64,000 nt of DNA from Nemertoderma westbladi (Eukaryota > Animalia > Xenacoelomorpha), in assembly GCA_032718475.1 (NCBI GenBank), contig JAUCBJ010001786.1, positions 25,226 through 89,225 of the forward strand, written 5' to 3'. Position numbers and translations under genes: made by a program. Each line of letters starts with the position of its first letter. Position 1 is the first letter of the stretch. The notes under the pieces are model-generated. The model saw nothing but the letters and a program-made list of their open reading frames with translations, did no database searches and was not told where the DNA came from. This document shows, piece after piece, positions 1,538 through 49,879 of this stretch.

Positions 1538-4500
1538 GGAGGCACAAAATTCTATGTGCCAACTTTATACTATTCACGCTTGTGTAAATCAACTGTGGAC
1601 ACCTTGTGTTTATTCTATCATGAAACAAAAAAACTCATGTTGCTTACAAAGATCTATTTAAATCGGTGCAACAATACTAGCCAGCCAGTTTAGATTTTTC
1701 ACACACATCAGATTCACATGAACCTACCTATATCTCAACTGATTTTGAATAGGGTGTGATGAATTCAATGAAGAGTTTATTCTCTAATACTCACCGGGCG
1801 CGGGCAGGTTGTTTATTCCATTTAGGTCAAATATTTTTATGGCAGTAGGCACAATCGGTTGGCCTACAAAGTGTATTCTGTGTCAAAGAAGAGGTGCAGC
1901 TTGGAAGGGATTTCCATTCGCTTGTTGCATCGACCTTCGTTCTAACTGATCATGTTTGAAATGTATTTGATATACTGGTCAATAATATTGACAACCGCAT
2001 ACAATCTGTATCATTTTCACCTCCATGATAATTATATTCATGGGTGTCTAATGGACATCTAACGTCATGGGAAAGTTTATTCCTGCCAGTTTTCCAGTAA
2101 AAGTAAGGATGAACTGCTACAATCGAGTAATTCGCATTTACCAAGAACTACAAATACTGCCATAGATGGGTTTAGATTTCGATGTGCATTTCGATTTCGA
2201 TGTGCATTTCAAGTTTAATGCTGCTTTTAACATTTTAGCCGACTCTCTGCCACGCAAGCGTTTGGTGGATTAATTAGTAAATCTAAATGTATAGGCGATA
2301 TTGATACGTACACTGTACACTAAACTAACTTAGATTACGGTGCTAGTGTTTGGGGTTACCATCTGAGATAGCAGCTAATTTAACTGTTCTACCATCAACC
2401 GGTGGCATGGAAGGTTACGATATTGTAGGAACTGGAATTATAAAGAAATTGATTGCGGATATACATTCATCTACACATTGTGGCGGTACAGTGGAAGTTA
2501 GCGAAACTTCTCATCGTGGTTACAGTGTCAAATATGAGGGCATGTGTGATTGTTGTGGTTGGATTTATTCAACAGACACAAGCAGCGTTGTTGACGTACC
2601 CAAACCTGGATCGGGCCGGATAACTGCCGATGTGAATCTCAGATCAGTTTTAGCCTGGCTTTGCATTGGAGGAACTCAGTGGGACGCTGAAACTTTCTCC
2701 CGAGTTATGTCACTGCCATCGCCAGTGGCTAAACGAGCGTGACGGTTGAAAGTTGATGCTATATCCGAAACAACAGAAGCTCTGGCCCGTGGAAACGCTC
2801 TAAATTGCGCGCAGAAGGAATCGGATACCGTGATATGTGTCTCTTTCGATGGAACCTGGATGCGACATGGCCACCAATCACTATATGGAGTTGCCTTTAT
2901 TATATCAGAAAGTACAGGCCATGTACTTGATTTTGATGTTTGCTCCAAGTACTGTAGTGTATGTTGCCGCCAACAGGTTGTCGAAGAGGGACATGACTGC
3001 AATATAAATTATACCGGATCAAGTTCAGGGATGGAGCCGCAGTTGGCAGTCCAGATGTTTGGTAGATCTGTAGTAACCAATGGCTTGGTGTATGGGTCCA
3101 TTGTGTCGGATGGTGACAGCAGTGTGCTGAAGGCCATATTAGAGTCTGATCCATATAAGGACCAGAATGTAACCGTTGAGAAGAAGGAATGCATAAACCA
3201 TGTCTCCAAGCGTTTATTTACCGGTCTTTCCAATGTACGTAAGACACACAAGCTCGGGGGGAGAGGAGGTCTTACTGAGAAGCGGTGCCACCAGCTTCAA
3301 TCGTTTTATAGAAACGCAATAGTAAATAATATATCTGGAGTCGATATAGATAATCTTACCGATAATGAGAAATCCAATCTAATAGAAACTATACGAACAG
3401 AAGTGATTACAGCTGCCCATCATTATTGTGACTACGGCGATAATAATATTGAGAAACGTCATCAGTTCTGCCCTAACAATAAGTGGTGTAAATTTCGGAA
3501 CAAGGATCCCAGTTATAAGGTAGTTACTATAGTAAAGGAAATCAACTTGAAATTTATCTTGCAAGTGTACCAACGCCTTACAACAGATCAGCTTCTAGAA
3601 CGCTGTATTCCTGGCCTGACTCAGAATCGGAATGAGTCAATACATTCCAGATTGTGGACTCGCCTTTCTAAGGAGTCATGTGTGGGCCTAAAAACCCTTA
3701 TGTTTCATGTGTCGTATGCTGTTCTGATCCACAATAGGGGTTGCAGTGCCGAGCAATTGATATTGAAGAAACTCGGACTGGAAGAAGACGATGGTGACAT
3801 GGCTGAAAGAGCAGAGGCGGCAAACAATAGAAGGAGGTCAAAGAGTGCAGAGCTCAAGCACTCAAAAAAGTGGGAGGCACCTGACCCAAAAAACTATTCA
3901 TCGGGATCCTTTTAACCTTTTAGATTTAGATTATGACGTAATTTATAGGCTGTATTTTTAATTTTTTTAGATCTTATGTTCCATATTTTTAAATATAACT
4001 AATTTTATATTTCGAATATTCGAGTTTTTACTGTGGTTATTCCAGTTACCATTATCATATTTGCATTCTGTGGAAAGTGTAGAATATTTAGGAAAAAAAA
4101 ATTATTAAAAATCGTCAACAGCAAGCGATTTAAATTGAAATTTAAGAAATTTTTTTGTAATAAAATATTAAAGTATAACATAAAATAGCATTTATTTCAA
4201 TATTGATTTTTTCAAATGAAAAATGCTAAGGCTTTGCCAAAAATCAATGTAACAAGCTGATTTTTTGTACACATGATGCCTAGGTTGTCGTCTACAAATC
4301 CTACAGACAGAATTTCTATATCCTCACAAGTTCTTGATTTATTTTGAAAAATATCTCATTTTTTCGACTTTTTCACTTTTTTTCGTGCGAAAATGGTCCC
4401 TTTTGGTGTTTTTACACTTTTTGACAAAATATTAAAATTTTGTCTGTACAGCTTGTTTAGGGTGACCTAAATAAGAGCTCACCGAATTTTTGTCCTTGTG

Positions 4501-5380: not shown

Positions 5381-5940
5381 AATCCAATCCTATCCTCTCC
5401 CTCCCTCCATTATTTTAATTTTAAATTTCTTTGCCCTATTCTGTACATTTTAATTAATTCGAAACAAATATTCAAATTATGTAGTACTGTACAATCAGTG
5501 TTTATATTATTTATTAATAATGTTTTACTCATCGTGCTTGTTTTGTAGTTGGTGTATTAGCCATGAAATATACTTTTAGCTAATTGATAAATAAAAAATC
5601 GATAGGATGGTACAGTGAATTACAGGCAATTTTTCAGGTAGTTGTGACGGGATCAAGGGATCCCGACCGGGTTTAGCAAGTACGCGTCACAGCGGGCTGA
5701 TGGATGGGCGCGATAGAATGTGGAATGTATAAACAGATAAGCTGTGAGTTTGATGTTCGACTGAAGTATAGTATAATATAGATAAAAGTATGCCACAGTT
5801 GATTGCTGATATATGATAGATACAGGTACCGGTAAGATAACAGGGTATACAGCACCGCAATGGCGGTCGAAATATGTCGCCGGTCCACGGTAAACTGGTC
5901 ACTGAGTAAACTGACCAGTAGTGGGGCATGCAACATAATA

Positions 5941-5958
5941 TTATGCAAATAGTTGTCA

Positions 5959-6022
<64 letters not shown>

Positions 6023-6413
6023 TGTCGTCGTCGTCGTTATGATTTTGACATGCTAATAACTTTGTCGGATTTAAAGCTGCCAAGTTGAAAATTTGTAGGT
6101 ATCAATATGAGCAAAAGTTGAGATTTTTGAGAGACTTTCAGACACCATCAGTGCAATGGTCTCCCGCTAGAGGGCCACATGTCTAAACATTAAATGCCCT
6201 CCCATTTCTTTGCTTTTAATCCGTTTAAGCTGAAACTTGGCAGATATGTATTAGACCATTAGCTGTGACTTTCAAAGGAGGCGAATCCATCTGCAGTTCT
6301 CCAGTCTGCCGCTAGAGGGCCAACGTGACTATTTGCATAAATTGACCTACCCCTAACAGTGTCAATTCGCTAAGGCTCTGCCAACTTCGTGCTGCGCGAA
6401 GTCCCCACTTCGT
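5941..6413 (+). mobile_element. Helentron/DINE-like non-autonomous element (probably 5'-truncated) inside the LTR
   Basis: Absent from the other LTR. Inverted repeat TTATGCAAATAGT / ACTATTTGCATAA, internal (GTC)n microsatellite, 3' palindrome ACTTCGTGCTGCGCGAAGT, no TSD. Confidence 0.6.
5957..6037. repeat. (GTC)n microsatellite
   Basis: About 27 GTC/GTT units. It accounts for the spurious poly-Asp ORF 5673-6083. Confidence 0.95.
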
Positions 6414-6700
6414 GTTACTCAGCTGATGCCTGCCCCCATTGGCTAGTAACCTACTTCACACCCTCTGCCCTGTGGGGGTGTTCCCCCCCCCCCCCCGCTG
6501 CTGTTACTTTCCTCTCTCTCAGGGGTGTAACCCCTGACCCCTATTGTGTGTGTGTTCTCTGGGGCCTATTGTCCCCGTTTACTGGGGTGACACGAGGTTG
6601 ATATTGGTAATCAACCTCGTGCTCCCAATATTGCTTAGAGGCGCTCTTTCCCACTTTATGGGGGTTGATGTGGCGGAATTGAATACGCTCACACTCCCCC

Positions 6701-8205
6701 TCTTCGCGGTATTTCAACTTTTCATAACGCGAGTTGAATATTTTTTGAATTTATTTAAAATGATTATTCCGATATCACTACTGGGTGTGGGACCATGGGT
6801 TTTGGGCACATTCAATGAACTGGGGGCGATTTATGGGCGAATATTGGGGTGACTTACAGGGTACGGGAATAATTTCATGTTTATAAGGGCCAGGGGTGGG
6901 AGGAAAAGTTAAGCAGTATTCAGGTTAGCCTGAGTACTATTAGGCCCTGGCCAACTTCCTGCTGCCTGTAGAGGTGGATTTGGTAATGCGCCAGGCCTAA
7001 AGGACAAGCACTGCCCTTAGCGGTCCCTGCCCAACAGCAGTTATTACGAGCCTGAAAAGGACATCGGAAAGTCTGCTGCTTGTGCCAGGGATTCGCGACG
7101 GGAAACGACAGCCCCCTTAGCTAAGCCGTACTGGTTCTCGATGACCAATCCCTTCGGGGTTTGCGAGGGGTGGGACGGACATGCGAAAGGGTTGGCCGAC
7201 TTACAGAGGAAGGGTTTGACGAGGACTGCCCTTAGTGGTCTCTGGTCAACAGCAGTTATTACGAGCCTGAAAAGGACATCAGAACGCCGGCTGCTTGTGC
7301 CAGGGATTTGCGACGGGAACCGACGACAGACCCCTTAGCCAAGCCGTACTGGTTCTCGATAATCATTCCCTTCGGGGTTCGTGAGGGGTGGGACGGACAC
7401 GCGACGGGGTCAAAAGACAAAGGACTGGACTCTACTGGCCTACCGACTGTTCGGAGCAGTTTCTCGGCTGCCGAAGCGACTACGAGCCTGAATAAGGTCT
7501 CGGAAAGCCTAGGTGGTTGGGTCTCTGCGATGAACCGACGGACCCCTAGCCAAGCCGTACTGGTTCTCGATGATTGAACCCTTCGGGGTTCGGGAGGGGT
7601 GGGACGGACACGCGAACGGGTCCACCGACATGACAGACTCCTAGCCAAGCCGTACTGGTTCTCGATGATTGATCCCTTTGAGGTTCGGGAGGGGTGGGAC
7701 GGATAAGCGACAGAGTCTACCGACTGGACCGACCCTTAGCCAAGCCGTGCTGGTTCTCGATGGTCGATCCCTTCGGGGTTCGGGAGGGGTGGAACGGACA
7801 CGCAACAGGGTCGACCGACACCGACACTACGGCACTAAGACTAGGACCGAGGGAAAATCTGGGGAACATTAGGTAGGCTAAAATCTGAGCTAACAGTGGG
7901 TAATTAAATAATATACTGTAGGGATTTATATTGTCGTGTATAATTATATTGAATATTTGGTGTATATTGATTTGGGGAATTAATTTATCAATTATCATTT
8001 AATTATCAATCAGGGTTCAACTGTAGGAAGTTACATTAAAGAGTATATCCAACCAATGCAACTTTTCCTCAACCGCAATCCTGCATTTAAGATATCATTC
8101 CTTCTCCACAATCAATATCCGGTGACTGGCCGGGACTCTGTGGTCTGTAAAGTCACGTCTCCAGCATCGGCGTTTTCCCCCCTGGTGTTTGGGATAACGG
8201 CAACA
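6701..8205 (+). repeat. 5' LTR of BEL/Pao element (~1.5 kb, contains hairpin array)
   Basis: Aligns end to end with 16687-18178. Roughly 30-40 substitutions (by eye, many at CpG) and small indels near 7925-8000. Confidence 0.95.
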
Positions 8206-8625
8206 AAATTGATAATTAAACGCGGCCAACTTCAACTGGTAGAAGTTGGGAATTCTACAATACTCTTCAAACTCTCTCCGTGCTTACCCAGCACCCACTA
8301 CGAGGAAACTCTGGTATTTGATTAATCAAATTTAGATTAATCATAATTTGTTTAATTAATCAACAAACTCGATCTAACCAACTCGTAGTCGGCAGATCAC
8401 ATATTGGAGAGTTGTTAACAGGGAATGGAAGTATCGATCACACCTATTGATATCATCCAAGTTGAGCCAGGAATCTGGCACGTTGAGGTGGAAGTACAAG
8501 GAACGAACGTCGGATGATTCAGGATTACCGTTCGGGTGGTCCAGTCTGAGTACAATACCTACGAGGAACTATTCTACAACATCGCATATCTAGCTATCAA
8601 CGAGGCATTGGAATGATGGCGAACA

Positions 8626-11600
8626 ATGTATCCGATACCGATGAGATGGACCACCATACAGATTCGGAAGCCGACGAGGTACCGAAATGTCAAGAACATG
8701 ACCCGTCGACTAGGGGCTCTCAAGGGCGGAGTAACTCGAGCGTATCAACGGATAGAGAAACAACTCAAGGGAGTCAAAACCCCCCTCAACGAGATACAAA
8801 CTCAGCTTCAGAGTATCCGAAACATCTTACAGCGATATGAAAGAATGATACAGTCGTACCAAGAGCTCGTTCCCTCCACCGATCAGGAAAACTATCCCAG
8901 GTTAGAAGAACACGTTGTACATCTAGATGGGTTCCGCAAACAACACCGGAGGACCCTTAGCCTTGTGAGAGGCTACGAAGAACAGTACTACAAGAGAGCC
9001 GAAAGAGCAGATGCAGAATCAGTGCGAACCTCCAGCACCAGGACAGCAAAACATCAAAGGAGATCGGGGTCCTCGAGAAACCAGCACTCCAGCGCGAGCG
9101 CGGTGTCCGGTTCAGCACACAGCTCTCAAGCGGGTCAACCACTCCAAGACCAGCTACGAGAACGGAAGGCATTAGCCCTCAAAGCTCGGATGGAAGATGA
9201 GTATATTCAACTGCAAGCCGAGCAAGATGTATTAGCCGCCAAAACGCAAAAACGAGAGGCCGAACAAGCAGCCGAACGGCAGGCCAAACAACGCAAACAG
9301 GAGGCTGAACAACATAGACGAGAGGCCGAACGGCAGGCCGAACAACGCAAACAGGAGGCCGAACGACGCGAACAGGAGGCTGAACAACATAGACGAGAGG
9401 CCGAACGGCAGGCCGAACAACGCAAACAGGAGACTGAACAACGTGGACGAGAGGCCGAACGAGAGATCAAACAACGTAAATGGGAAGCAGAAATGTGTAA
9501 ACAACACGCCGAGGCCCAAGCGATTCTCATCCACAAAAAGAATGCGGATATTGCAAAACTCACGGAATACGAAGCCGCACTTATAGAACGAGATATTCAA
9601 CTCTACGAGGACTGGGAAAGGGATATAGATCAGGAATATGAACCAATCCCGGTACCGGAATTAGAGAAGTCATTTATACCGACAGCGGCGAAACTTCCGA
9701 AACCCGAGATCCCGCCTACCAAACAGTCTACGTTATCGGCACAAGCACCGGTGTTCCATCCCCCACCGGCTACGCTTAAAAATGAGGAACTGTATTTCCC
9801 ATCCAACCACACGGCAACGAGTGTACCCAAGTACGAGCCTGAAAGGGACTCGGAACGGGACGCCACTCCTCAATCCAACAACTCGTTTACATCCACACCA
9901 CAAACCCGTAGTTGCGTCATCATTAAAACTCCACCTATCATTGATCCATCGAGTATGGGAGAGAGTGCTAATAACTATAACCCTCCGAACCACTCCAGTT
10001 CAGACGACGTCGGCATTATCCGGGCATTGGAAAACCGCCTCTCCATGCCCAAGATGGAGATCCGCACCTTTGATGGAGATCCCGTCGATTACCTCAGATT
10101 CAAGAAACGGTTCTTTGCGCAGATTGGATCAACGGACATAGCCGACGCACAGAAACTGGTATATTTATCGCAATACCTGGGTGACAAACCACGTCAAATC
10201 ATCGCTTGTTTTGAGGGAGGTTCTCATGAAGCATACTACGACGCATGGAAAACTCTAGACAAAAGATACGGAAATACCGGGACTATAATTAATAAAACTC
10301 TAGAGAAACTGATACAAGACGCGGGATCACTAGGGGAACCACAGAACATCCAGGAATTCTCAGACTCCATGAAGGATGCCTACTACACTCTAAAACCCTT
10401 AAATAAGGAGGACCAGGTGAACAACATCCTAAACCTTCGACAGATCGCCCGGAAGTTCCCCGGATGGCTGCAAAGCAAGTGGGCCTATAAATGCGTAGAT
10501 CTCCGGCGCAGACACCCAGATCGAGATCCCAGCTTCCTTGAAATGTCAGCATTCCTGGACGATATCTCCGAAGCCATGAATGATTCGATGTTCTCGAAAC
10601 AGAGTCTCGCCAAGTTGGACGGAATAGAGAGCAACTCCAGGAGTAAGACACCCACTCAGAAACCGAGATTCCGCCCTCCTCCGGTGAGTACGATGGCCAT
10701 CACCATGGCAGAGAATTCCGACGACGAAAACTACGAGGAACCGACATCAGCCGAGGAATGGGCATGTTATCTCGCGAATTGGGCACCCGAGAGGGAAGAC
10801 ATCACAAACCCCCTTCTCTGTCTCTACTGTGGAGAGAAACATAAAGTTGAATTCTGCAGGAAGTTCCAGTTTGCTGAACTCGTCCCACGCTTCGAGGCGA
10901 TTATGAAACACCGAGGATGCTTCTGGTGTCTTGGAACAGGTCACTACGTTCGGGATTGCGACCAAAGGTCGTGTTGTGCAGTTTGTAACAACCTACGTCA
11001 TCACACGCTCCTCCACATCCCCGCAAACTTTGACTTCACCACTCTCCCCTTCCGGATTGCAGCCAAACGAAGAGGAGAAACGAACCACATCTCCAAAGGA
11101 TCCCGGACGATTCAACGAAGGGAAACTAACCCGTTTAAAACCTCCACTAACGCATCACAAGTGACAAATATCTCAACCACGATCAACCTTATAAATCGCC
11201 GTTATATGGTCTTCACCAAGGTAATCCCAGTAAGAATTCAGGGAGTCGGCAAATCCTTGACAACGCTCGCGTTCCTTGATAACGGGTCGGACGGAACCAT
11301 CATCGACCGGGATTTCCTCGAGCAACTCGGCCTAGACTATGAACCTTGCAAACGGCCCATACAAACTATTACCGACCACAGAGAGGTAGAATCCGGGGAG
11401 GTGCAACTCCAGATGGAAGGAGTAATGAAGGGCTACGAGACGGTTAAGCTCACCATCAAGAACGCCTTGGTACACACAGACCTCCGAGTGCAGTTCCGAC
11501 AATCGGCCGAGTACGCCCCCCTTATACAGCTAGATCGAGACGATGTAGACCTATGGTGCCCGTCGTTGGATGTAAACCGCATCACCCTACTGATCGGACT

Positions 11601-11661
11601 TGATACACCGGAATTACACATCCCCCACCGGAGATGTCGCCCAATCTATAAAACAGGATGA
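8626..11661 (+). CDS. gag: BEL/Pao Gag plus aspartic protease
   Basis: Coiled-coil N-terminus and DUF1759-like LSMPKMEIRTFDGDPVDYLRFKKRF. Triple Cys array CLYCGEKH...CFWCLGTGH..C..CAVC..HHTLLH. Protease motif AFLDNGSDGT. Confidence 0.92.
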   Translation: MYPIPMRWTTIQIRKPTRYRNVKNMTRRLGALKGGVTRAYQRIEKQLKGVKTPLNEIQTQLQSIRNILQRYERMIQSYQELVPSTDQENYPRLEEHVVHLDGFRKQHRRTLSLVRGYEEQYYKRAERADAESVRTSSTRTAKHQRRSGSSRNQHSSASAVSGSAHSSQAGQPLQDQLRERKALALKARMEDEYIQLQAEQDVLAAKTQKREAEQAAERQAKQRKQEAEQHRREAERQAEQRKQEAERREQEAEQHRREAERQAEQRKQETEQRGREAEREIKQRKWEAEMCKQHAEAQAILIHKKNADIAKLTEYEAALIERDIQLYEDWERDIDQEYEPIPVPELEKSFIPTAAKLPKPEIPPTKQSTLSAQAPVFHPPPATLKNEELYFPSNHTATSVPKYEPERDSERDATPQSNNSFTSTPQTRSCVIIKTPPIIDPSSMGESANNYNPPNHSSSDDVGIIRALENRLSMPKMEIRTFDGDPVDYLRFKKRFFAQIGSTDIADAQKLVYLSQYLGDKPRQIIACFEGGSHEAYYDAWKTLDKRYGNTGTIINKTLEKLIQDAGSLGEPQNIQEFSDSMKDAYYTLKPLNKEDQVNNILNLRQIARKFPGWLQSKWAYKCVDLRRRHPDRDPSFLEMSAFLDDISEAMNDSMFSKQSLAKLDGIESNSRSKTPTQKPRFRPPPVSTMAITMAENSDDENYEEPTSAEEWACYLANWAPEREDITNPLLCLYCGEKHKVEFCRKFQFAELVPRFEAIMKHRGCFWCLGTGHYVRDCDQRSCCAVCNNLRHHTLLHIPANFDFTTLPFRIAAKRRGETNHISKGSRTIQRRETNPFKTSTNASQVTNISTTINLINRRYMVFTKVIPVRIQGVGKSLTTLAFLDNGSDGTIIDRDFLEQLGLDYEPCKRPIQTITDHREVESGEVQLQMEGVMKGYETVKLTIKNALVHTDLRVQFRQSAEYAPLIQLDRDDVDLWCPSLDVNRITLLIGLDTPELHIPHRRCRPIYKTG
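9250..9470 (+). repeat. In-frame tandem repeats in gag (EAERQAEQRKQ / EAEQHRR units)
   Basis: Repeated gaggccgaacggcaggccgaacaacgcaaacag and gaggctgaacaacatagacga blocks encode a charged coiled coil. Confidence 0.85.
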
Positions 11662-12674
11662 CGGATTTTATGCTGAACAAACAATAATGGGATGGACACT
11701 CTGCGGCATCAAGGAAGAGACTACCGACACCTATACATACCTTCCTAAATGTCAGATTAAAGAGAATGCAACATCCGTGGGTTATTGCTCAGCTACAGAC
11801 CTTGACGAGGATTTATTTCTTGAGACCGAGAAAACCCAGCAAGAGATGACTAAATACTTTAATCTAGAGACCCAAGAGTTCGCTGAAAAAGACGAAAACC
11901 CATCCGAGGAGGATCAATATTGTATGGACGTCCTGGACCAGGCCACGTTCGAAGATGGACACTGGTGTTCACCTATGTTATGGAAGGACCCAAACAAACC
12001 AATGGCAAACAACGCTAACATGGCCCTTAGGCGACTTAAGGGGATTCTCCGCCGGCTGAATGACCAACCCGAGATAAAGGAGAAATATAATACCGTAATC
12101 CAAGGATATCTCGACAATGGATTAGCAGAAATGGTACCACGGAATGAACTGCAAGGGGGTAAAAGAACATATTATCTTCCAACCCACTATGTGGTAGAAG
12201 CCCGGAAGGGTGGGAAAATCCGAGTAGTTAATGATGCCGCTGCTATGTATCAAGGCGAATCCCTGAATAGTCAGCTTTATACGGGGCCCAACATATATAG
12301 TACACTCATTGGCGTATTGATCAGGTTCAGAGAAAACCGGATAGCATTCACCTGCGACATCAAAGCCATGTTTCACCAGGTTCGTACGCTACCAAGAGAC
12401 TCAGACTGTCTATGTATCCTATGGCGATATGGTTCTAGTGAAAGAAGATCTTAAAGACCGTGTCCACTGGCCTGTGGCGCGAGTCGTGACAATACACCCG
12501 GTCAAAGACGGACTTGCGAGGACTGTGACGATACGAACGGCAAAGGGCCACTACCAACGCCCTATCCAGAGGCTGTGCCTTCTTGAAGGCAATGACAGTG
12601 GTGATTCTACGAGAGGTGATAAGTTCCCTACCGATCCTGCTGCAGACATTGGTGACAATGATAAACCCGTTTAA
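11627..12674 (+). pseudogene. pol: Truncated BEL/Pao pol: RT N-terminal half joined to integrase C-terminus (DUF5641-like)
   Basis: YAEQTIMGW, YYLPTHYV..KIRVVNDAA, SLNSQLYTGP and DIKAMFHQV are present. They are followed directly, in another frame, by GDMVLVKE..WPVARV..DGLARTV..RPIQRLCLL. The RT YVDD motif, RNase H and integrase core are missing. It is frameshifted from gag at the C-run near 11622. Confidence 0.9.
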
Positions 12675-12939
12675 ACCCTTCTCATCCTGTTGACAAACTC
12701 TTAAACTGTGATTTATCCACAATGAAAATGGACCCCCTTTAAACAACTGTAACCACGCAATGGTATTTGTGTTTCCTCGTGTGTTATGTGGAGTCCAGTG
12801 TCACCCTGCAGATGTTTCGACTGACGCAGGGTCGTTTATGTATTGTTTACCCTGATTTTGGTCATCGGGACCAACGACCTTGGATTATTGGAAATGGTAA
12901 AGATTTGAAGTGGAATTCATTGTATCCATTGTAGTATGT

Positions 12940-13370
12940 TATGTTGTCCGTTGCATGCGCAGTTCGGGGTGTAGGCGGTGTAATGAGTCCAGCTGTAGAT
13001 CCCGGATTGCCGCGCAACACCCCCTCTATCCCGTTATTCTGGTGGGTCCATGGTGCATCCACATGACTTCGACGATAGAGGTTTTATGTTCTCAGTTGCG
13101 TTATTCTGGTGGGACTGTTGCGTGGATTTTGGGGCGTAGGCGGTGTAACAAGTCCAGCTGTAGATCCCAGAATGTTGCGTAATCCCATCCCACATGACTT
13201 CTTCGGCTGAGCTTTATGTTGTTGGGAGTGTTATTCTGGTTGGTCCCTGGTGCATTCCACGTGACTTCACTCCCAGCGTCTTCATTGTCCGTTACGTGTG
13301 CAGTTTAGGGCGTAGGCGGTGTAACGAGTCCAGCTGTAGATCCCAGATTGCCGCGTAACACCCCTTCCAC
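12940..13370 (+). repeat. Three ~170-bp-period repeats, each containing a foldable ~58-nt unit, between pol and ORF3
   Basis: ggggygtaggcggtgtaayragtccagctgtagatcccrg occurs at 12966, 13131 and 13307. Confidence 0.8.
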
Positions 13371-13909
13371 ACCGAAAATTTACCAAAGAAGATGATTGAA
13401 TGTAGTTGGAAATGATGAAAAGAAACAGACAACTCTACTATAAACTGAAGGATGACGCGTATGATGATGAAAATGTAATGATGCGCACCATGGTGCTGCG
13501 CTTATAACAAATGATGATAGCCGGGGGGCTATAACCCCAATGATGATGTGGAAATAAACAAAATTGAGAATAAATGGTGGAACTAAATGATAAAATATGT
13601 TGAAATAATGAAATGTGAAATGAAATAATAATGAGAAATGGAAAAAGACAAAAAAATGTATAAAATGTATTAATAAAAGAATTGGAAAAAGAAGAGGACA
13701 TAAAAAGTCAAAAAACTGGTTGGATATTAATGTATACCTATAGTAACTGTAAATGCTCAATGTTAGCAATAGATGGTAGATGCCTATATAGCAATGTTAT
13801 TTAATAAAGTGAATTAAAAATAAACTGAATTATTCTGCAATCACTATAGTTTCAGACTTTCTGGACTTATAATTAACTGATCTAATTTGCAACGGACATA
13901 ATCGTAAAT

Positions 13910-16510
13910 ATGGACCCAAATCGCCAAATTATCGGCGAATTACGTAATACGATAGATCTACTGGAATATCCGCAACCTGGATCCCCTAACTTTGATACAA
14001 ATTGGAACGCCCTGATAAATGAGAACGTGCGAGTCGTTAAATTCACCGGGCGAGAGGGACCGGACTCTAAGAATCTACGAGCCCTCCGGTTGGCCGATGC
14101 AAGTACGAGACTGAAAAGAACTCGGAACGCAAAGGCCACCAGAGAGGACGAGATGTCGTACTGGGATACATTCCGGCAAAGCGTCTACAAATCCCGATGT
14201 CTGATATACGACAACGAAGGAAATGCGACGCCCACCTCGAAAGCGATTAGGTTGGCGAGATGTCAAAGTTTTGTCGACGACAAGAGTACGTACCTCGCCC
14301 ACTGGGGAAACCTGTCGGAGTGTACGGCGACGCTACGAGAGGAACGTAAATCAATCATCCAGAATCGCGACGACTACCAGGAAAAGTACGGGGCGAAAGA
14401 ATACGGTCAATCCTTGGTCGTCGTCCTCGGAACCCTGGAAGGTTTGGTATTGGTGTGTCGAATATTCCCGACACCCAGACAGGAAGTGCAGGCAGCCGGA
14501 GCGATCTGGTTACTACCTCCGGAAATCCAAAAAATCCTCTTCGACTTCGACGTCATTAAAATCGGGTCGGATATAAAAGCGGACGTCCGGAACGACTACG
14601 CGAACGCTCCTTTAGGAAGAGACCATCGAGACGACCTCAACGCCCTTAGTCATAACATCGACACCCAAACGCTATTAGCCTGGTTACGATTCGCCGAATT
14701 CATGCGAGGATTTCGAGAGGTGAGACAGACCAAATCCGGGATCGGCTACCTTGCAGTGCTAAACGGTGGCATCGACTTCAAACCTCAGAAATTCCGGGAT
14801 TATAATAAAATATATGGTGGATACCCGGGATTAGAAATAAAGAGCGAGTGGGAGGGTCGATGGAAGGACGTTGAGAGAAAGTGGACGATACACCAAAGGT
14901 GGGAGAATCCGGATCGACGGAACTACATCTACGTCGTTATGGAATCATACACCGTCGCTAAGTTTATCTGTAAAACTCTCAATAACCTCATCACGGCGGT
15001 TCCTCTTTCCTTCGTCGACTACGAATGGGATGAGGTTATAAACCACGCATTCAAAGCGGTCGAGAACATTACACCGGGAGAGACGAAAAAGCTCGCCGTT
15101 ATCGATTCCTGGGATGAGAGCGGACCTTACGACATCCCTACGATTACCGATCTTCTCGGTGCAGAGGAGCCTCTGATTTCTTCGGAAGGGGAAGAACTAT
15201 GGCTACATGAGGGTGTTCTACTCTCCACCCCGAAGCGACAACTCGAACCGGAAGCCGCTTACCAACCGGCCGCCAAACGGATTGCCTCGGCCGAACCTAC
15301 AATGGAAGCGGGCGTTTCAACCCCACTCGGCTCCGGTAGCCCTGCAAGGGAGTTAGTCACTACCTCCGCGTTGAGCGACTTCGGCGATATTTGCCAAAGG
15401 TTATCCCCATATCCTTTCCTGGGTGGCGAAGACTGGTCTTCGGAGATTCCGAGTACCAGCAATCAATGGTCCCACTCAGCGATACTGGTTGAAAAGGGTC
15501 CCAGCGCTGCGCCGACTCCCGATGATCTCCTCGGAATCCCTCCGTCGAAAACCCCAGCACCTCTTCGCCGACCAGCGGTGACAACTACACCCTCCGTTCC
15601 ACAGGATCCTATGCGACTAACCCGTTGGTACGCCGAGCAGACCGAATGGATCCACCGTCAGAAACGGTCGTCTGAGTTGAGACCGACGGGACACAAAGAA
15701 GGTTATCGGAGCGAGAACCTACTACGCCAAAGCCCGGCCTTCCGCGGGCTAACGACCACCGCGAATATTCAAAAGAGCGACCGACAACTCGAGTATTACG
15801 TCGGCGTCCCGATTCCGATATTCCCCGGTCGAGAGATGCAGTTGGAAGTGTGTGGTAACTGCGGTTCGGAGCAGTGCCCACACGGTAGAAGAAATCGGGT
15901 TACCGATTCGTGCCTCCAGCTCCTCGGGATACTCTATTGCCCATACTGCGCGACATCGGGCCACGATGTTTCAGTCTGTCCAGTCCTCTATAACCTCTGC
16001 ACTACGTGCGGTTTCCGTGGACATTCCACTAGCCCCCGCTGCTATATAAAATGTCCTACTAAAGACGTTACCGCTATGGGGAATATGGTCATGTTTGAAA
16101 CCTACGCAAACAGCCACGTAAAGACCAAGGTTTGGAGAAACGCTCGGAATATCGCGCAGGATATGGCGTGCGGGTATTTCTCCTTCCCGGAACGCCTCCA
16201 CACGTCGGCCATGCTGCCTTTCCATTACGTGGATCTGTTGCTGAGCGCCGGATTATTCGGCCCATTCGAAGTCATTAGACGATTATACTCGTATAAAGAG
16301 GAGTTCGGTGATGGAAAGTGGTTCCTAGAGGCGCGCAACACCGAGTTGGAAAGACGAACCGATATGATACCGATGCCGTCGAAAGGAAGAGCCGCCAGGA
16401 GACAAGCCGAAGCGTTGCTCACGATGGATGTTGATGCTCCCCTTCCAGCTCTAGCGATCGACGAGAGTCGACGGGCGAAGAGGAGAAAGGCGTATCAGAG
16501 AAAGAAATAG
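13910..16510 (+). CDS. Retrotransposon accessory ORF3: DEDDy-like 3'-5' exonuclease domain, disordered linker and Cys/His zinc knuckles
   Basis: 866 open codons. ExoI-like IYDNEG, ExoII-like LPPEIQKILFDFDVIKIGSDIKAD, IDTQTL..SGIGYLA, ExoIII-like YVVME. C-terminal CPYCATSGHDVSVC and CTTCGFRGHSTSPRC. Confidence 0.7.
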   Translation: MDPNRQIIGELRNTIDLLEYPQPGSPNFDTNWNALINENVRVVKFTGREGPDSKNLRALRLADASTRLKRTRNAKATREDEMSYWDTFRQSVYKSRCLIYDNEGNATPTSKAIRLARCQSFVDDKSTYLAHWGNLSECTATLREERKSIIQNRDDYQEKYGAKEYGQSLVVVLGTLEGLVLVCRIFPTPRQEVQAAGAIWLLPPEIQKILFDFDVIKIGSDIKADVRNDYANAPLGRDHRDDLNALSHNIDTQTLLAWLRFAEFMRGFREVRQTKSGIGYLAVLNGGIDFKPQKFRDYNKIYGGYPGLEIKSEWEGRWKDVERKWTIHQRWENPDRRNYIYVVMESYTVAKFICKTLNNLITAVPLSFVDYEWDEVINHAFKAVENITPGETKKLAVIDSWDESGPYDIPTITDLLGAEEPLISSEGEELWLHEGVLLSTPKRQLEPEAAYQPAAKRIASAEPTMEAGVSTPLGSGSPARELVTTSALSDFGDICQRLSPYPFLGGEDWSSEIPSTSNQWSHSAILVEKGPSAAPTPDDLLGIPPSKTPAPLRRPAVTTTPSVPQDPMRLTRWYAEQTEWIHRQKRSSELRPTGHKEGYRSENLLRQSPAFRGLTTTANIQKSDRQLEYYVGVPIPIFPGREMQLEVCGNCGSEQCPHGRRNRVTDSCLQLLGILYCPYCATSGHDVSVCPVLYNLCTTCGFRGHSTSPRCYIKCPTKDVTAMGNMVMFETYANSHVKTKVWRNARNIAQDMACGYFSFPERLHTSAMLPFHYVDLLLSAGLFGPFEVIRRLYSYKEEFGDGKWFLEARNTELERRTDMIPMPSKGRAARRQAEALLTMDVDAPLPALAIDESRRAKRRKAYQRKK

Positions 16511-16686
16511 TGGATCGGGATATTCCAGGAACATTTATTGAACATTTATTTTTATACACATATATATATAAACTCTAGGCCAAATTAATCAAGACTATGC
16601 AATATTAAATTTGGGTTTTTTATATTGGGAATGACCTACGCAAACTCAATCTACCGATAGACCTCACGAAGGTCATTGGGGGGGAC

Positions 16687-18178
16687 TGTTCGCGGTATTT
16701 CAACTTTTCATAACGCGAGTTGAATATTTTTTGTATTTATTTAAAATGATTATTCCGATATCACTACTGGGTGCGGGACCATGGGTTTTGGGCACATTCA
16801 ATGAACTGGGGGCGATTTATGGGCGAATATTGGGGCGACTTACAGGGTACGGGAATAATTTCATGTTTATAAGGGCCAGGGGTGGGAGGAAAAGTTAAGC
16901 AGTATTCAGGTTAGCCTGAGTACTATTAGGCCCTGGCCAACTTCCTGCTGCCTGTAGAGGTGGATTTGGTAATGCGCCAGGCCTAAAGGACAAGGACTGC
17001 CCTTAACGGTCCCTGGCCAACAGCAGTTATTACGAGCCTGAAAAGGACATCGGAAAGTCTGCTGCTTGTGCCAGGGATTCGCGACGGGAAACGACAGCCC
17101 CCTTAGCTAAGCCGTACTGGTTCTCGATGACCGATCCTTTCGGGGTTCGCGAGGGGTGGGACGGAGATGCGAAAGGGTTGGCCGACTTACAGAGAAAGGG
17201 TTTGACGAGGACTGCCCTTAGAGGTCTCTGGTCAACAGCAGTTATTAGGAGCCTGAAAAGGACATCGGAACGCCGGCTGCTTGTGCCAGGGATTTGCGAC
17301 GGGAACCGACGACAGACCCCTTAGCCAAGCCGTACTGGTTCTCGATGATCGTTCCCTTCGGGGTTCGTGAGGGGTGGGACGGACACGCGACGGGGTCGAA
17401 AGACAAAGGACTGGACTCTACTGGCCTACCGACTGTTTGGAGCAGTTTCTCGGCTGCCGAAGCGACTACGAGCCTGAATAAGGACTCGGAAAGCCTAGGT
17501 GGTTGGGTCTCTGCGATGAACCGACGGACCCCTAGCCAAGCCGTACTGGTTCTCGATGATCGAACCCTTCGGGGTTCGGGAGGGGTGGGACGGACACGCG
17601 AACGGGTCCACCAACATGACAGACTCCTAGCCAAGCCGTACTGGTTCTCGATGATCGATCCCTTCGGGGTTCGGGAGGGGTGGGACGGATAAGCGACAGA
17701 GTCTACCGACTGGACCGACCCTTAGCCAAGCCGTGCTGGTTCTCAATGATTGATCCCTTCGGGGTTCGGGAGGGGTGGAACGGACACGCAACAGGGTCGA
17801 CCGACACCGACACTACGGCACTAAGACTAGGACCGAGGTAAAATCTGGGGAACATTAGGTAGGCTAAAATCTGAGCGAACAGTGGGTAATTAAATAATAT
17901 ACTGTAGGGATTTATATTGTCGTGTATAATTATTGTGAATATTTGGTGTAATTTGATTTGGGGAAGCCCAATTAATTATCAATCAGGGTTCAACTGTAGG
18001 AAGTTACATTAAAGAGTATATCCAACCAATGCGACTTTTCCTCAACCGCAATCCTGCATTTAAGATATCATTCCTTCTCCACAATCAATATCCGGTGACT
18101 GGCCGGGACTCTGTGGTCTGTAAAGTCATGTCTCCAGCATCGGCGTTTTCCCCCCTGGTGTTTGGGATAACGGCAACA
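16687..18178 (+). repeat. 3' LTR of BEL/Pao element
   Basis: TGTTCGCGG...GGCAACA, preceded by the PPT and followed by the CCCCC TSD. Confidence 0.95.
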
Positions 18179-18399
18179 CCCCCCCATGCTATCTTCCCGG
18201 TGAGAAGATAGCATCAACCTCAAAGTGCGCTTCAATTCCACTGGAAGCTCAATCTACTATCGGGTGTGGGGTGGAGCTATTTTTCTTGAAGTCGGCTTTC
18301 CAGGCCGCTCCCTATGGGTATGATGTCACTACCCTCTGGCGCCTCGTGTCGGGCCGATCGTGCGCTTCTCTCACACAATTTTTGTTTCCCAACACTCTT

Positions 18400-19460
18400 G
18401 CCACTCTAGCTCCGCTCTAACTTCTCCACTCGAACTCTGCTCTAACTCCGCTCTACACCTGAATCGCACTCTAACTTCTCTCTCGCCAACAGCTCCTCTC
18501 ACTATCTCCTCTCTACTCTCTGCCACTCCCTAAGGCCCTAATCTCTAATGCTACCCCTGTGCTATCATACTATCTAACTCTCTAACTTACTAACTCTAAC
18601 TATCTCTCTAAGCCTACTAACTCTAACTCTAACTCTACTAACCACTAACTCTACTCCCTGCTAAGTCTACTTACTCTTACTCTAACTCTACTAACCACTA
18701 ACTCGACTCTCTGCGTCTACTAACTCTTACCCTACTACTACCTCTAACTCGGCTACCACCTTTATCTACGTGGTGCTTGTGGTGCCCACAACCATTCCAC
18801 CACTACTTCTAACTCTAACTAAAACCCCATAACTCTCTACTAACTCTAACTCTACTTAGTCTACTCCTTTCTACTCTCTACGTGGCGATTGCGGTGCCCA
18901 CAACCTCTCTCTGCTACCACCTTCTACGTGGCGCTTCCGGTGCCCACAACCTTCTGTTACTACCTCTATCTATGTGGCGCTTGCGGTGCCCACAACCATT
19001 CTACTACTACTTTCATATACGTGGCGCTTCCGGTGCCCACAACCTCTCTACTATCTGGCACCCTATGTGTCCGTCTCTACTACTCTACTACCTCTAACTC
19101 TCTAGCTCTACTACCTGGCACCCTCTAGCTCTACTACCTGGCACCCTATGTGCCCTCTCTACTACTCTACTACCTCTAACTCTCTAACTCTACTACCTGG
19201 CACCCTATATGCCCTCTCTACTACCCTACTACCCGGCACCCTATGTGCCCTCTCTACTACTCTACTACCTCTAACTCTCCACCTCCACTACTACCTCTAT
19301 CTACGTGGTGCTTCTGGTGCCCACAACCCCACTACTACTACTCGTGGCATGACAATATGCCACACTCCCTTTCCCCGCCGTCTTCTAACTCTACTTCTAC
19401 CTTACTTACTACTAACTATCTGACTACTAACTCCTTACTATCTTCTACTAACTATTTATT
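18400..19460. repeat. Strand-biased CTA/CT-rich low-complexity tract with short tandem repeats (3' region of outer element)
   Basis: ctaact/ctact runs with repeated acgtggcgcttccggtgcccacaacc and ctacctggcaccctatgtgccctct units. The + strand is G-poor. Confidence 0.85.
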
Positions 19461-23307: not shown

Positions 23308-23916
23308 TGTGACGGGATCGAGGGATCCCGACCGGGTTTAGCAAGTACGCGTCACAGCGGGCTGATGGAGGGGCGCGATAGAATGTGGAATGTATAAACG
23401 AATAAGCTGTGAGTTTGATGTTCGACTGAAGTATCGTATAATATAGATAAAAGTATGCCACAGTTGATTGCTGATATATGATAGATACAGGTACCGTTAA
23501 GATAACAGGGTATACAGCACCGCAATGGCGGTCGAACTATGTCGCCGGTCCACGGTAAACTGGTCACTGAGTAAACTGACCGGTAGTGGGGCATGCAACA
23601 TAATATATATCTTACTGCACTTGTGGCCTTGTTACTCAGCTGATGCCTGCCCCCCATTGGCTAGTAACCTACTTCACACCCTCTGCCCTGTGGGGGTGTT
23701 TCCCCCCCCCCCCCCCCCCGCTGCTGTTACTTTCCTCTCTCTCAGGGGTGTAACCCCTGACCCCTATTGTGTGTGTGTTCTCTGGGGCCTATTGTCCCCG
23801 TTTACTGGGGTGACATGAGGTTGATATTGGCAATCAACCTCGTGCTCCCAATATTGCTTAGAGGCGCTCTTTCCCACTTTATGGGGGTTGATGTGGCGGA
23901 ATTGAATACGCTCACA
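23308..23916 (-). repeat. 5' LTR of outer element (609 bp)
   Basis: TGTGACGGG...GCTCACA, followed by the TSD GTAGT. Confidence 0.92.
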
Positions 23917-47600: not shown

Positions 47601-48091
47601 AAAGTTATTGACTGTAAGTTACTGTGCTGTAAGGTTAAGCCTACCCTGCATACATGTCATGTCACAGGTTACACTGGTCACCCATTCTCACCAAGCTCTA
47701 TAAGCACTAAGCAGCAAAGCCTACTGCTACACCCTACTGCTGACAGGCTGGTGATGTTGTAGTTGTACAGGCTGGCGAAATTTGAGGTTTTGTCTCAAAT
47801 TTGAGGTTTAACCTCAAATTTCAATTTTCGCCCCCAATAAAAGCATGTTTGCATCGGTGAAATATTTTATTGCATCGATAAAAGTTCTTATTTTACATTA
47901 TATTTTAACATATTAAAAGTAGAAGTTGCTCCAATAGTTTCCCTAAGTCGCAGCAACACTCGATATTATGAGTCTAAAAATACCTCAAATTTGAACAAAA
48001 AACCCCAATTTTCGACAGTCTATTACCAGAATTCGAAATTTGGGGTAACCCCAAAATTGATGATCTCCCTGACTGACTGCTGTTCTTGATT

Positions 48092-49879
48092 ATGTCGGTG
48101 CGAAAAATATACCCATTGCGGGAACGAGTCCGAGAGTCAATACCGGTGGATTTGATAACAAACGATGGGGAGGCTTCGCTGGTAAGTGATATACCGGTAC
48201 CGGTCATCTGCACTGACACCACCTCAGCTGATGATGGTTTTGACTCAGATTGTGGTGTTAGTTCGAGCGCTAGTTCGGATGGAGAGACTAGGAATTTTGA
48301 TTCCGACAACCTAAGTTATGATAGCTCTGATCTCGATGAAGACGATACTGGTACCGGTATTTCCGGTTCCGATGATGGTGACCTTTTCGAACTGGCTGAA
48401 ATGATTGGTAAAGATGGGACTCGTTGGTTTAATCTTGAAACTGGAACTCCACATACCGGTACTGCTGGTCGTCGACCAGCAAGAAATGTTTTTAGCGAAC
48501 GTATAGGAACCAAACCATATGTGAGAAATCGTATAACTGATGTTTATTCAGCTTGGAAAGAGTTCCTATCTGAACCGATTCTTAAACTTATAACGGATTA
48601 CACAAATAAATTTGCGCACGATAATTTGGAAATAGACCTTCAATTAACTGTTACTGAGCTAGAGGCACATATTGGTTTACAATATATTCGCGGAGTTTAT
48701 GGTAAACACATTCCTCTAGATTCCCTATGGAATAAAGATATAGGAATCAAAATATTCCCAAATACAATGTCGCGAGACCGATTCCGCCTAATAAAACGAT
48801 GTTTTCGGTTTGATGATAAGAGTAAAAGAATGAGTCATTTTGCTACTGATAAGTTCACTCATATAAGAGAGGTATTCGACAAGTTTGTGGAAAACTGTTT
48901 GAGCAAATATATCCCATCATATTCACTAACGATTGATGAATAATTGTTACCCTTCAAGGGGAGGTGTAATCTAATGACATTTATGCCTAATAAACCGGAT
49001 AAATATGGAATCAAATTTTGGGTTTTGGTTGATCTAGAATCTAAATACGTCGTTAAAATATTGCCGTATCTGGGAAAACAAGAATCAGAAACCCGTGATG
49101 GTCTATTGGGGGAAGATGTAGTTATGCGACTAATGGCAGATCACCTCAACAGAGGATATAATGTGACAACAGATAATTTTTTCACGTCACTCCAACTAGC
49201 TAAGAGGTTGTATGATAAGAAAACATCTATAGTTGGTACAATGCGTAAAAACCGGAGAGAACTCTGCCCTAAGATGCTCGATTGTAGTGGAGGAAATGTC
49301 TTCGATAGTACTTTCTTTCATGAACCTGATAGTACAGCAGTTGTTGTCTCTTATCGACGAAAACTAAACAAAAACGTATTGCTTCTGTCTACTTTTCATG
49401 AAACTCCAACTGTCACTGCCACAGAAAAGAAAAAACCAGAAATTATCATGTATTATAACTCTCAAAAATGTGGAGTAGACATTTTTGATCAGATGTCCCG
49501 GCTCTATACTACTAAATGTGCCACGAGACGATGGCCTATGGCCGTCTGGGGCAACATACTTGATATTTGTCTAATTAACGCCCGTGTTGTTTATAATAAC
49601 GTTACTAATGCTAAGATGTCAAGACGTAATTTCATATTTGCGTTGGTCGATTGTTTGAAGGAGCCATACATGTCACAAAGAGATAATTCAAATCTAGAAA
49701 CTGTTATTTCACCACTTAACAACGTTGTACAAATTACCAAGAAACGGCGTGAATGTCGGACATCCGGGTGTAATAACAAAACTAATATTATATGCTTGAA
49801 ATGTTCTATGCCTAAATGTGGTAACTGTCTAACTGAAATTGAAAAATTTGCTAAAGCCGTATGTGTGCAGTGTTCATAA
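48092..49879 (+). pseudogene. piggyBac transposase with a single in-frame TAA (48941-48943)
   Basis: Acidic N-terminus, MSRDRF, TIDE*LLPFKGR, KPDKYGIKFW, TDNFFTS, YNSQKCGVDIFDQ, RRWP and a C-terminal Cys-rich domain. Confidence 0.95.

What the first reader, a model, noticed from the sequence alone, without database searches (positions are those of the whole stretch)
13910..16510. BEL/Pao retrotransposon carries an open DEDDy-exonuclease/zinc-knuckle ORF in the env position
Seen: an 866-codon ORF between the integrase remnant and the PPT, with no obvious signal peptide or TM segment, so it is not an env. It has D101-x-E103 after a hydrophobic strand (ExoI-like), LPPEIQKILFDFDVIKIGSDIKAD (ExoII-like, D225) and Y341-xxx-E345 (ExoIII-like, with E where D is usual). 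A Pro/Ser-rich linker and three Cys/His clusters (C648-C711) follow. Established: this motif order is that of WRN/EXD/Mut-7/RNase D-type DEDDy nucleases, several of which act in small-RNA silencing. Extra DEDDy ORFs have been reported in rotifer and nematode LTR elements. I do not know of this nuclease plus multi-knuckle architecture in BEL/Pao. Inference: an RNA-binding nuclease or pseudo-nuclease that counters silencing or processes element RNA. Caveat: the element is young, so an open frame alone does not prove selection.
Basis: partly seen in the sequence, partly recalled or inferred. Interest (0 to 1): 0.8.

Follow-up and report, generated by a model that had tools for sequence, protein, structure and literature searches.

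The report
Ancient exonuclease gene in BEL/Pao retrotransposons
Where some jumping genes carry a viral envelope gene, this animal BEL/Pao retrotransposon and dozens of distant relatives carry a conserved extra gene whose product is predicted to fold like RNA-trimming exonucleases and has three zinc knuckles, so it likely binds and trims RNA for the element, although one whole branch has lost the cutting residues and still keeps the gene.

Summary
Confirmed and extended. ORF3 (13910-16510, 866 aa) is open and lies between the integrase tail and the PPT of a BEL/Pao element whose pol is internally deleted. It has no Pfam hit. A family profile matches human EXD2 (E 2e-10). The AlphaFold model matches DEDDy exonucleases, best Nibbler (Z 13.4). 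D101, E103, D225 and Y341/E345 align with the D-E-D-Y-D of relatives; E for the last D is shared by two other members. A knuckle-motif scan gave 120 loci. In 30 of 33 loci with at least 1 kb upstream, ORF3 follows a BEL/Pao integrase. ORF3 and integrase trees are congruent, and dN/dS is 0.04-0.2 in the closest pairs. A 17-member clade has lost the catalytic residues but stays under purifying selection. In 8 of 24 relatives a UGA-C pol stop is followed by an open in-frame spacer into ORF3, suggesting readthrough fusion; this does not apply to the window copy. Best reading: an old accessory RNA-binding nuclease acting on the element's own RNA or particle; counter-silencing is the main rival. DEDDy ORF3s are known from rotifer LTR elements; I found no report of this architecture in BEL/Pao. 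Activity untested.

The parts
6696..6700 (+). 5-bp target-site duplication CCCCC (partner 18179-18183)
   Evidence: Sequence; empty-site joints 6696/6697 to 18179/18181 in public contigs
6701..8205 (+). 5' LTR (starts TC where the 3' LTR has TG; ends CA); no TGGCGCC primer site in the element
   Evidence: BLASTN 96.5% to the 3' LTR; 39 mismatches in 1492 aligned bases; primer-site search
8617..11661 (+). gag-protease ORF of BEL/Pao type
   Evidence: DUF1759 E 4e-15; aspartyl protease E 1e-4
11594..12674 (+). Broken pol: the start of RT joined to the integrase C-terminal tail; the rest of RT, RNase H and most of integrase are missing
   Evidence: RT part matches relatives' pol at E 1e-21; DUF5641 E 7e-17 and no Peptidase_A17 hit
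12675..13909 (+). Non-coding spacer with three 90-nt hairpin repeats (12944, 13109, 13285) and an AT-rich stretch
   Evidence: Repeats; folding z -2.1 to -2.5
13910..16510 (+). ORF3, 866 aa
   Evidence: six full-architecture or C-terminal homologues by phmmer
14120..15067 (+). DEDDy-type 3'-5' exonuclease fold (aa about 71-386): D101-x-E103, D225, Y341-xxx-E345, with a predicted helical insertion at about aa 108-164
   Evidence: VIA-align Z 13.4, rmsd 3.5 A, 199 aligned, to Aedes Nibbler EXO; family profile against EXD2 E 2.1e-10
15095..15811 (+). Low-confidence Pro/Ser-rich linker (aa about 396-634)
   Evidence: pLDDT under 50 over nearly all of it; length varies across the family
15851..16042 (+). 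Three Cys/His zinc-knuckle clusters (C648-C711); the second is a canonical CX2CX4HX4C
   Evidence: Cys/His columns conserved in A3 and A5; weak matches to Lin28, nucleocapsid and TbRND knuckles
16043..16294 (+). Conserved, predicted helical domain after the knuckles; no known family
   Evidence: Alignment A5; no PDB sequence hit better than E 0.92; fold not tested on its own
16678..16685 (+). Polypurine tract
   Evidence: Sequence
16687..18178 (+). 3' LTR with five 95-nt repeats, each holding a k-turn-like hairpin

Best explanation
ORF3 is a conserved accessory gene of one BEL/Pao lineage whose product is predicted to join a DEDDy 3'-5' exonuclease fold to three zinc knuckles, and it likely acts on the element's own RNA-protein particle, the knuckles gripping single-stranded RNA and the nuclease domain trimming or holding its 3' ends. 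Shown: the ORF, its position, the motif conservation, inheritance together with integrase, purifying selection, and loss of catalytic residues in one clade. Predicted: the fold. Inferred: RNA binding by the knuckles (by analogy to trypanosome TbRND, whose zinc fingers raise RNA binding and cleavage); action in cis (from apparent UGA-C readthrough that would fuse ORF3 to Gag-Pol in some relatives); binding as the core function with cutting as an option (from the dead but conserved clade). The window protein keeps D-E-D-Y-E and is more likely active than not (about 60%). In this element it must be translated from a separate message or by internal initiation, because the 1.2-kb spacer after pol is closed.
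For: Fold: all 50 listed rows of the unbiased VIA-align search are DEDD/DnaQ-type nucleases or polymerase exonuclease domains, led by Nibbler Z 13.4 and 13.1. The family profile matches EXD2 at E 2.1e-10 and Egalitarian at E 0.012. Context: 30 of 33 loci with at least 1 kb upstream have a same-strand BEL/Pao integrase hit; Peptidase_A17 and/or DUF5641 were found upstream in 31 loci. Co-inheritance: 13 of 15 supported ORF3 splits are in the integrase tree, none conflicts, Mantel rho 0.85 over 31 loci. Selection: N-domain dN/dS 0.04-0.16 in the 11 closest pairs; C-domain 0.02-0.20 in 7 of 7 pairs; window family 24 synonymous against 17 non-synonymous differences, ratio 0.21, p 1e-6. In-cis hint: 12 of 24 relatives end pol with UGA-C; 8 of these have a stop-free in-frame spacer of 294-672 nt into ORF3, against 0 of the other 12. 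TbRND precedent: PMC7797062, abstract and section 13.
Against: No activity or binding data. ORF3 itself has no Pfam match, and no Foldseek hit reaches E 0.001 (best 0.027). The model has mean pLDDT 60, and ExoI sits at the edge of a low-confidence insertion. ExoIII has E instead of D, a state seen in only 3 of 52 rows. The readthrough pattern is absent from the window element and from 12 of 24 relatives, and its cases come from about two lineages, so the p-values overstate independence. The best structural match is a piRNA-pathway enzyme, which fits the counter-silencing rival equally well. Substrate (RNA or DNA) cannot be read from this fold. The 41 window-family differences are the best-supported rows that the tool printed out of several hundred, not a random sample.
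Confidence: 0.45

Rival explanations
1. Counter-silencing in trans: ORF3 over-trims, sequesters or competes for piRNAs or their precursors, mimicking Nibbler/Mut-7 (active forms) or EXD1 (dead forms).
For: Best fold matches are Nibbler, with EXD1 at Z 11.1-11.3. The dead but conserved clade parallels EXD1 and Maelstrom (PMC5408684 discussion). A separately expressed ORF3 in the window element could act in trans.
Against: Strict co-inheritance with integrase and low dN/dS everywhere tested show no arms-race signature, though no site-wise test was run. The apparent pol-ORF3 readthrough in relatives points to packaging. Nibbler leads NrnC, WRN and RNase D by only 1.5-2 Z units.
Confidence: 0.27
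2. A DNA 3'-5' exonuclease that edits or trims the element's cDNA ends before integration, like WRN/EXD2 or polymerase proofreading domains.
For: The best sequence-profile match is EXD2; WRN Z 11.2-11.6 and Pol I exonuclease domains Z about 11.3. Readthrough would fuse it right behind integrase. Dada DNA transposons carry a DEDDy domain proposed to process 3' ends (PMC3706591 passage).
Against: It does not explain why a 17-member clade without catalytic residues is conserved. CCHC knuckles usually bind RNA (established knowledge).
Confidence: 0.13
3. An Egalitarian-like RNA adaptor that binds element hairpins and routes the RNA or particle to the germline, replacing env.
For: Egalitarian matches by profile (E 0.012) and by fold (Z 10.5-11.1). 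The gene occupies the env position. A dead clade exists. The window element has repeated hairpins.
Against: Egalitarian ranks below the active nucleases. The k-turn-like hairpins are not enriched in relatives (5 observed against 3.5 expected over 57 loci). 24 of 52 rows keep four acidic residues.
Confidence: 0.1
4. A recently captured host fragment that is open only because the element is young.
For: The LTRs differ at only 39 of 1492 sites, so an open frame alone is weak evidence.
Against: Homologues at about 15-25% identity sit in the same position, with congruent trees and dN/dS far below 1.
Confidence: 0.02

Closest known systems
DEDDy-type ORF3 of bdelloid rotifer Juno and Vesta LTR retrotransposons and Athena/Terminon elements (Rodriguez et al. 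2017, PMC5408684; parts 1-3 and 5 of 5 read)
   Same: Non-env ORF3 downstream of pol with an RNase D-like DEDDy domain; altered acidic motif (DEED there); no TM; function untested, with 3'-end processing or silencing roles proposed.
   Different: Different host elements (Juno/Vesta; that they are not BEL/Pao is recalled). The paper calls those ORFs recent, independent acquisitions with neutral intragenomic variation measured for other ORF3 types, and mentions only a Cys-His-Cys motif. Here the gene is old, co-inherited with integrase, under purifying selection, has three knuckles plus an extra domain, and includes a dead clade.
Trypanosoma brucei RNase D, TbRND (PMC7797062; abstract and section 13 read; PDB 7c42-7c4c)
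   Same: DEDDy exonuclease plus C-terminal tandem CCHC fingers; fold match Z 11.0-11.2; nearest Atlas cluster of homologue P0002 has this architecture (0.86, a lead only).
   Different: A cellular protist enzyme with four fingers directly after the nuclease. ORF3 has three knuckles behind a 100-700-residue variable linker and sits in a transposon. Likely convergent architecture (inference).
Nibbler/Mut-7, EXD2, EXD1, Egalitarian and WRN exonuclease domains
   Same: Same fold and motif order; the cellular group also has active and dead members.
   Different: 11-17% identity; ORF3 has family-specific insertions, the knuckle module and no Pfam PF01612 match. The donor gene cannot be named from these data.
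Exonuclease domain in a C. elegans Cer LTR element (recalled from Malik, Henikoff and Eickbush 2000; nothing seen, paper not held)
   Same: If my recollection is right, an RNase D-like domain after integrase in a nematode LTR element, possibly of the BEL clade.
   Different: As recalled it lies beside an env gene and has no knuckle module. Unverified; it would remove the claim 'first in BEL/Pao' but not the rest.

Membership tests
DEDDy 3'-5' exonucleases (RNase D/WRN/EXD group) | RNase H-like DEDD fold | tested here: met
   Predicted model: Z 13.4, rmsd 3.5 A, 199 aligned to Nibbler EXO in a search of 48,161 chains; family profile against EXD2 E 2.1e-10
DEDDy 3'-5' exonucleases (RNase D/WRN/EXD group) | ExoI D-x-E at the end of the first core strand and ExoII D on the following helix | tested here: met
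   D101/E103 lie in predicted strand 37-43 and D225 in helix 162-171 of the model; these columns align with EXD2 IDCE and GVGCSED
DEDDy 3'-5' exonucleases (RNase D/WRN/EXD group) | ExoIII Y-x-x-x-D | tested here: not met
   The window protein has Y341-xxx-E345. 18 of 52 family rows are DEDD, 3 DEDE, 3 DEED. Strict motif not met in this protein; met in much of the family.
DEDDy 3'-5' exonucleases (RNase D/WRN/EXD group) | Pfam PF01612 gathering score | tested here: not met
   No hit for ORF3; best members E 0.019 and 0.2, below the cut-off
DEDDy 3'-5' exonucleases (RNase D/WRN/EXD group) | Acidic residues cluster and support two-metal 3'-5' hydrolysis | not testable with these tools
   Model coordinates are not returned; needs inspection and an assay
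BEL/Pao LTR retrotransposons | LTRs, target duplication, PPT, DUF1759 gag, protease, DUF5641 integrase tail | tested here: met
BEL/Pao LTR retrotransposons | Complete pol (RT, RNase H/Peptidase_A17, integrase core) | tested here: not met
   Deleted in this copy; present in relatives. The copy is non-autonomous.
BEL/Pao LTR retrotransposons | Placement in a named superfamily (BEL, Pao, Tas, Suzu, Sinbad, Dan, Flow) | not tested
env-like ORF3 | Signal peptide, TM anchor, fusion-protein homology | tested here: not met
   The single hydrophobic 19-mer is a predicted strand pair; 2 of 51 family rows exceed KD 2.0; no fusion protein among the listed fold hits
Rotifer DEDDy ORF3 pool (Juno/Vesta/Athena) | Sequence clade membership | not tested
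   Those sequences were not retrieved; none appeared among the 8 phmmer hits (hits are unnamed)
TbRND-like DEDDy + CCHC proteins | DEDDy domain followed by tandem CCHC fingers | tested here: met
   Architecture shared
TbRND-like DEDDy + CCHC proteins | Orthology to TbRND | tested here: inconclusive
   Weak knuckle match only with the 7-row profile (E 0.015), absent with the 86-row profile; fold Z below Nibbler

The most novel reading that the evidence does not exclude
One old BEL/Pao lineage uses a Nibbler/EXD-type nuclease with its own zinc-knuckle RNA grip as a standing third gene. It is expressed separately in some branches and packaged by UGA readthrough as a Gag-Pol-ORF3 fusion in others, and has turned into a pseudo-nuclease at least once. 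It turns a small-RNA-pathway enzyme against host silencing, by trimming or shielding piRNA-targeted RNA ends, and would be the first retrotransposon-encoded enzymatic counter-defence against the piRNA pathway.
Probability: 0.25. Interest if true: 0.85.

Novelty: new variant of a known kind. Interest (0 to 1): 0.62.

Why it matters
Why LTR elements carry enzymatic third genes has been open since the rotifer report, which found no evidence of benefit. This family supplies that evidence (deep co-inheritance and purifying selection) and a natural comparison set of intact, variant and dead active sites and of fused versus separate expression. That makes the question testable with recombinant domains. 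If the target is the host small-RNA pathway, it would be a transposon-encoded counter-defence built from the pathway's own enzyme class. The domain is invisible to Pfam, so such ORFs are probably left unannotated or called env.

Tried and rejected
No whole genome was held, so copy number and intact copies were not examined. The three word-indexed protein searches found nothing; this is a sensitivity limit, since phmmer found homologues. Of its 8 hits, P0008 and P0009 were dropped as short or unrelated matches. A single-sequence fold failed (pLDDT 34). Viral contigs gave no relatives. Atlas scores of 0.86 for PF01612 clusters are leads only. Rfam found nothing in 6500-18500; no tRNA genes. The run search listed no RNA holder, which is no evidence on expression; contig depths were not used. 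No contig of run X4 joined at the candidate acceptor 13855 and one ran across it unspliced, but contigs drop rare forms. The complex prediction of nuclease domain with knuckle domain returned 'no answer' (score 0.00, alignments not used). A link between the LTR k-turn-like hairpins and ORF3 was rejected: no enrichment in relatives. Origin of the knuckles from gag is not supported: best E 0.009 in a five-sequence test, E 3 for the window gag. The careful ML tree did not finish; the quick tree was used, and the window protein is a long branch of uncertain place. The fold of the C-terminal domain was not searched alone. Literature: ten searches found no BEL/Pao exonuclease ORF; 'exonuclease' has 0 occurrences in the main texts of PMC3118150 and PMC2774666. 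Subscription papers, Repbase and supplements were not seen and may hold a precedent. Earlier findings of the scan: nothing by sequence or words, and eight unrelated notes by place.
Full report
Observation. It sits in an LTR element with LTRs at 6701-8205 and 16687-18178 (96.5% by BLASTN; 39 mismatches in 1492 aligned bases), a CCCCC target duplication and empty-site joints in public contigs. Gag carries DUF1759 (E 4e-15) and the integrase tail DUF5641 (E 7e-17), both BEL/Pao markers. Pol is broken: the start of RT runs into the integrase tail, and RNase H and the integrase core are absent, so this copy is non-autonomous. No host gene was recognised; the other long ORFs tested were transposon pieces or had no hit. 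The host is taken to be an animal because BEL/Pao is a metazoan group (PMC3118150, abstract and passages).

Finding the family. ORF3 has no Pfam or PDB sequence match, and three word-indexed searches were empty. Exhaustive phmmer gave 8 hits. Six are real homologues: five have both the N-terminal domain and the Cys/His module, and one has the C-terminal part only. A degenerate pattern from the Cys/His module found 120 loci in metagenome contigs, from 25 of 64 parts scanned and about 310 stretches estimated; 114 of the 120 have the motif in an ORF of 60 aa or more. The pattern selects on the knuckles, not on the nuclease or the context. Iterated profiles recovered the N-terminal domain in 68 ORFs or fragments. 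Most loci come from a few assembly series, so host range is unknown.

Fold. The 48-row N-domain profile matches the exonuclease domain of human EXD2 at E 2.1e-10 and Egalitarian at E 0.012. An AlphaFold model built on a 51-row alignment (mean pLDDT 60, core blocks 75-93) gave no Foldseek hit under E 0.001, but Nibbler EXO ranked first. VIA-align against 48,161 chains ranks Aedes and Drosophila Nibbler EXO first (Z 13.4, rmsd 3.5 A, 199 aligned; Z 13.1), followed by NrnC, RNase D, Klenow, WRN, EXD1, TbRND, Rrp6 and Egalitarian at Z 10.5-11.9. The fold is therefore well supported; the donor gene is not resolved. D101/E103 lie on the first core strand, D225 on the helix after the fourth strand, and Y341/E345 on the last long helix. 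A helical insertion of about 57 residues after E103 is private to this element family.

Active-site states. Of 52 rows (duplicates, fragments under 230 aa and one row with unknown letters dropped), 24 keep four acidic residues (18 DEDD, 3 DEED, 3 DEDE including the window protein), 23 have lost at least one, and 5 are incomplete. Seventeen of the degenerate rows form one clade (SH-aLRT 100, quick tree). The window protein's ExoIII fails the strict YxxxD test, so I do not file it as a proven DEDDy enzyme; I put its activity at about 60%.

Context and history. Of 52 loci with the domain, 38 have a BEL/Pao integrase-profile hit, all upstream on the same strand; of the 33 with at least 1 kb upstream, 30 do. 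The exceptions are L013 and L009/L033, which carry the same ORF. Peptidase_A17 and/or DUF5641 were found upstream in 31 loci. For 31 loci the ORF3 and integrase trees share 13 of 15 supported splits with no conflict (Mantel rho 0.85, 0 of 2000 permutations). The window's RT fragment is only 23-35% identical to these relatives, so the association is old.

Selection. Pairwise NG86 dN/dS for the N-domain is 0.04-0.16 in the 11 closest pairs and below 0.57 in all 41 of 42 pairs where it is defined, including 0.04 within the dead clade. For the knuckle domain it is 0.02-0.20 in 7 of 7 pairs. Within the window's own family, 41 listed differences split 24 synonymous to 17 non-synonymous (ratio 0.21, p 1e-6, no stops); these are only the best-supported rows printed.

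Expression. In the window, pol ends with TAA and a closed 1.2-kb spacer, so ORF3 needs its own message or internal initiation. The candidate acceptor at 13855 has a weak pyrimidine tract and no contig support. One contig of run X4, 84% alike, begins near 13970 with letters I recognise from memory as a template-switch cDNA adapter. That suggests a relative of ORF3 is transcribed in sense, but it is a single contig from a run listed as probable DNA, and its start lies 60 nt inside the ORF. In relatives, 12 of 24 end pol with UGA-C; 8 of these continue in frame without a stop for 294-672 nt into the ORF3 start, against 0 of the other 12 (shuffle expectation 0.17 in total; Fisher p 0.001; 9 of 12 spacers in frame, p 0.004). 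That UGA-C is a leaky stop context is recalled. The cases come from about two lineages, so this is a lead for readthrough fusion, not proof.

Mechanism. The best reading (0.45) is an accessory RNA-binding nuclease acting on the element's own RNA or particle: knuckles grip RNA, as the fingers of TbRND do (PMC7797062, abstract and section 13), and the DEDD domain trims or holds 3' ends. The conserved dead clade suggests binding matters more than cutting. Rivals are counter-silencing in trans (0.27), cDNA-end processing (0.13), an Egalitarian-like transport adaptor (0.10) and a neutral passenger (0.02). No step of the mechanism was tested biochemically.

Comparison and novelty. DEDDy ORF3s are described for rotifer Juno/Vesta LTR elements and Terminons (PMC5408684, parts 1-3 and 5 of 5; PMC5718144 and PMC6431247, passages), and a DEDDy domain for Dada transposons (PMC3706591, passages). 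The kind is therefore known. Ten searches found no BEL/Pao case and no DEDDy-plus-knuckle ORF3. I recall, but could not check, an exonuclease domain in a C. elegans Cer element; subscription papers, Repbase and supplements were not seen. PMC11662393, PMC2774666 and PMC5603734 (passages only) added nothing. Verdict: a real, selected, lineage-wide new variant of a known kind; interest 0.62.

Noticed in passing
window 17094-17807 (3' LTR; counterparts in the 5' LTR near 7143-7700): Five 95-nt repeats each form a k-turn-like hairpin (3-nt bulge, tandem G-A/A-G pairs, four with a UUCG loop). 5 found against a shuffle mean of 0.2, maximum 2; the copies are not independent, folding z-scores are not significant, no Rfam match, not enriched in relatives. 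The k-turn consensus is recalled.
   Followed up: partly
window 12944-13374: Three 90-nt repeats in the pol-ORF3 spacer fold into long hairpins (z -2.1 to -2.5) around a shared apical sequence; possible packaging, promoter or internal-initiation signal.
   Followed up: partly
L008, L030, L032, L035, L067, L071, L072, L080 (pol stop to ORF3 start): UGA-C stop followed by a stop-free in-frame spacer: candidate programmed readthrough giving a Gag-Pol-ORF3 fusion.
   Followed up: partly
window 13970-14652 (run X4, record 2): A contig of a diverged family member starts with what looks like a cDNA template-switch adapter (recalled), so run X4 may be RNA-derived and ORF3 transcribed in sense.
   Followed up: no
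window 14130 to 17289: Runs X1 and X2 hold a joint that skips most of ORF3, the PPT and the start of the LTR: a deletion derivative of the family.
   Followed up: no
window 8206-8230 versus L014, L030, L032, L047, L071: Relatives have a TGGCGCCCAAC primer-binding site before gag; the window element has none.
   Followed up: partly
L006, L053, L044, L016 (ORF3 N-terminal parts); P0003: Some members carry 480-900 extra N-terminal residues with no Pfam hit; P0003 has the knuckle module twice.
   Followed up: no
window 5643-6693 and 23308-23916: Two repeats (97% alike) flanking this element recur about 17 kb downstream, so it may be nested in another repeat.
   Followed up: no
window 2743-3915, 31797-33861, 48077-49879, 36000-64000: Mutator-like transposase, an RT fragment, a piggyBac-type (DDE_Tnp_1_7) transposase split by a stop, and a large array of direct and inverted repeats.
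   Followed up: no
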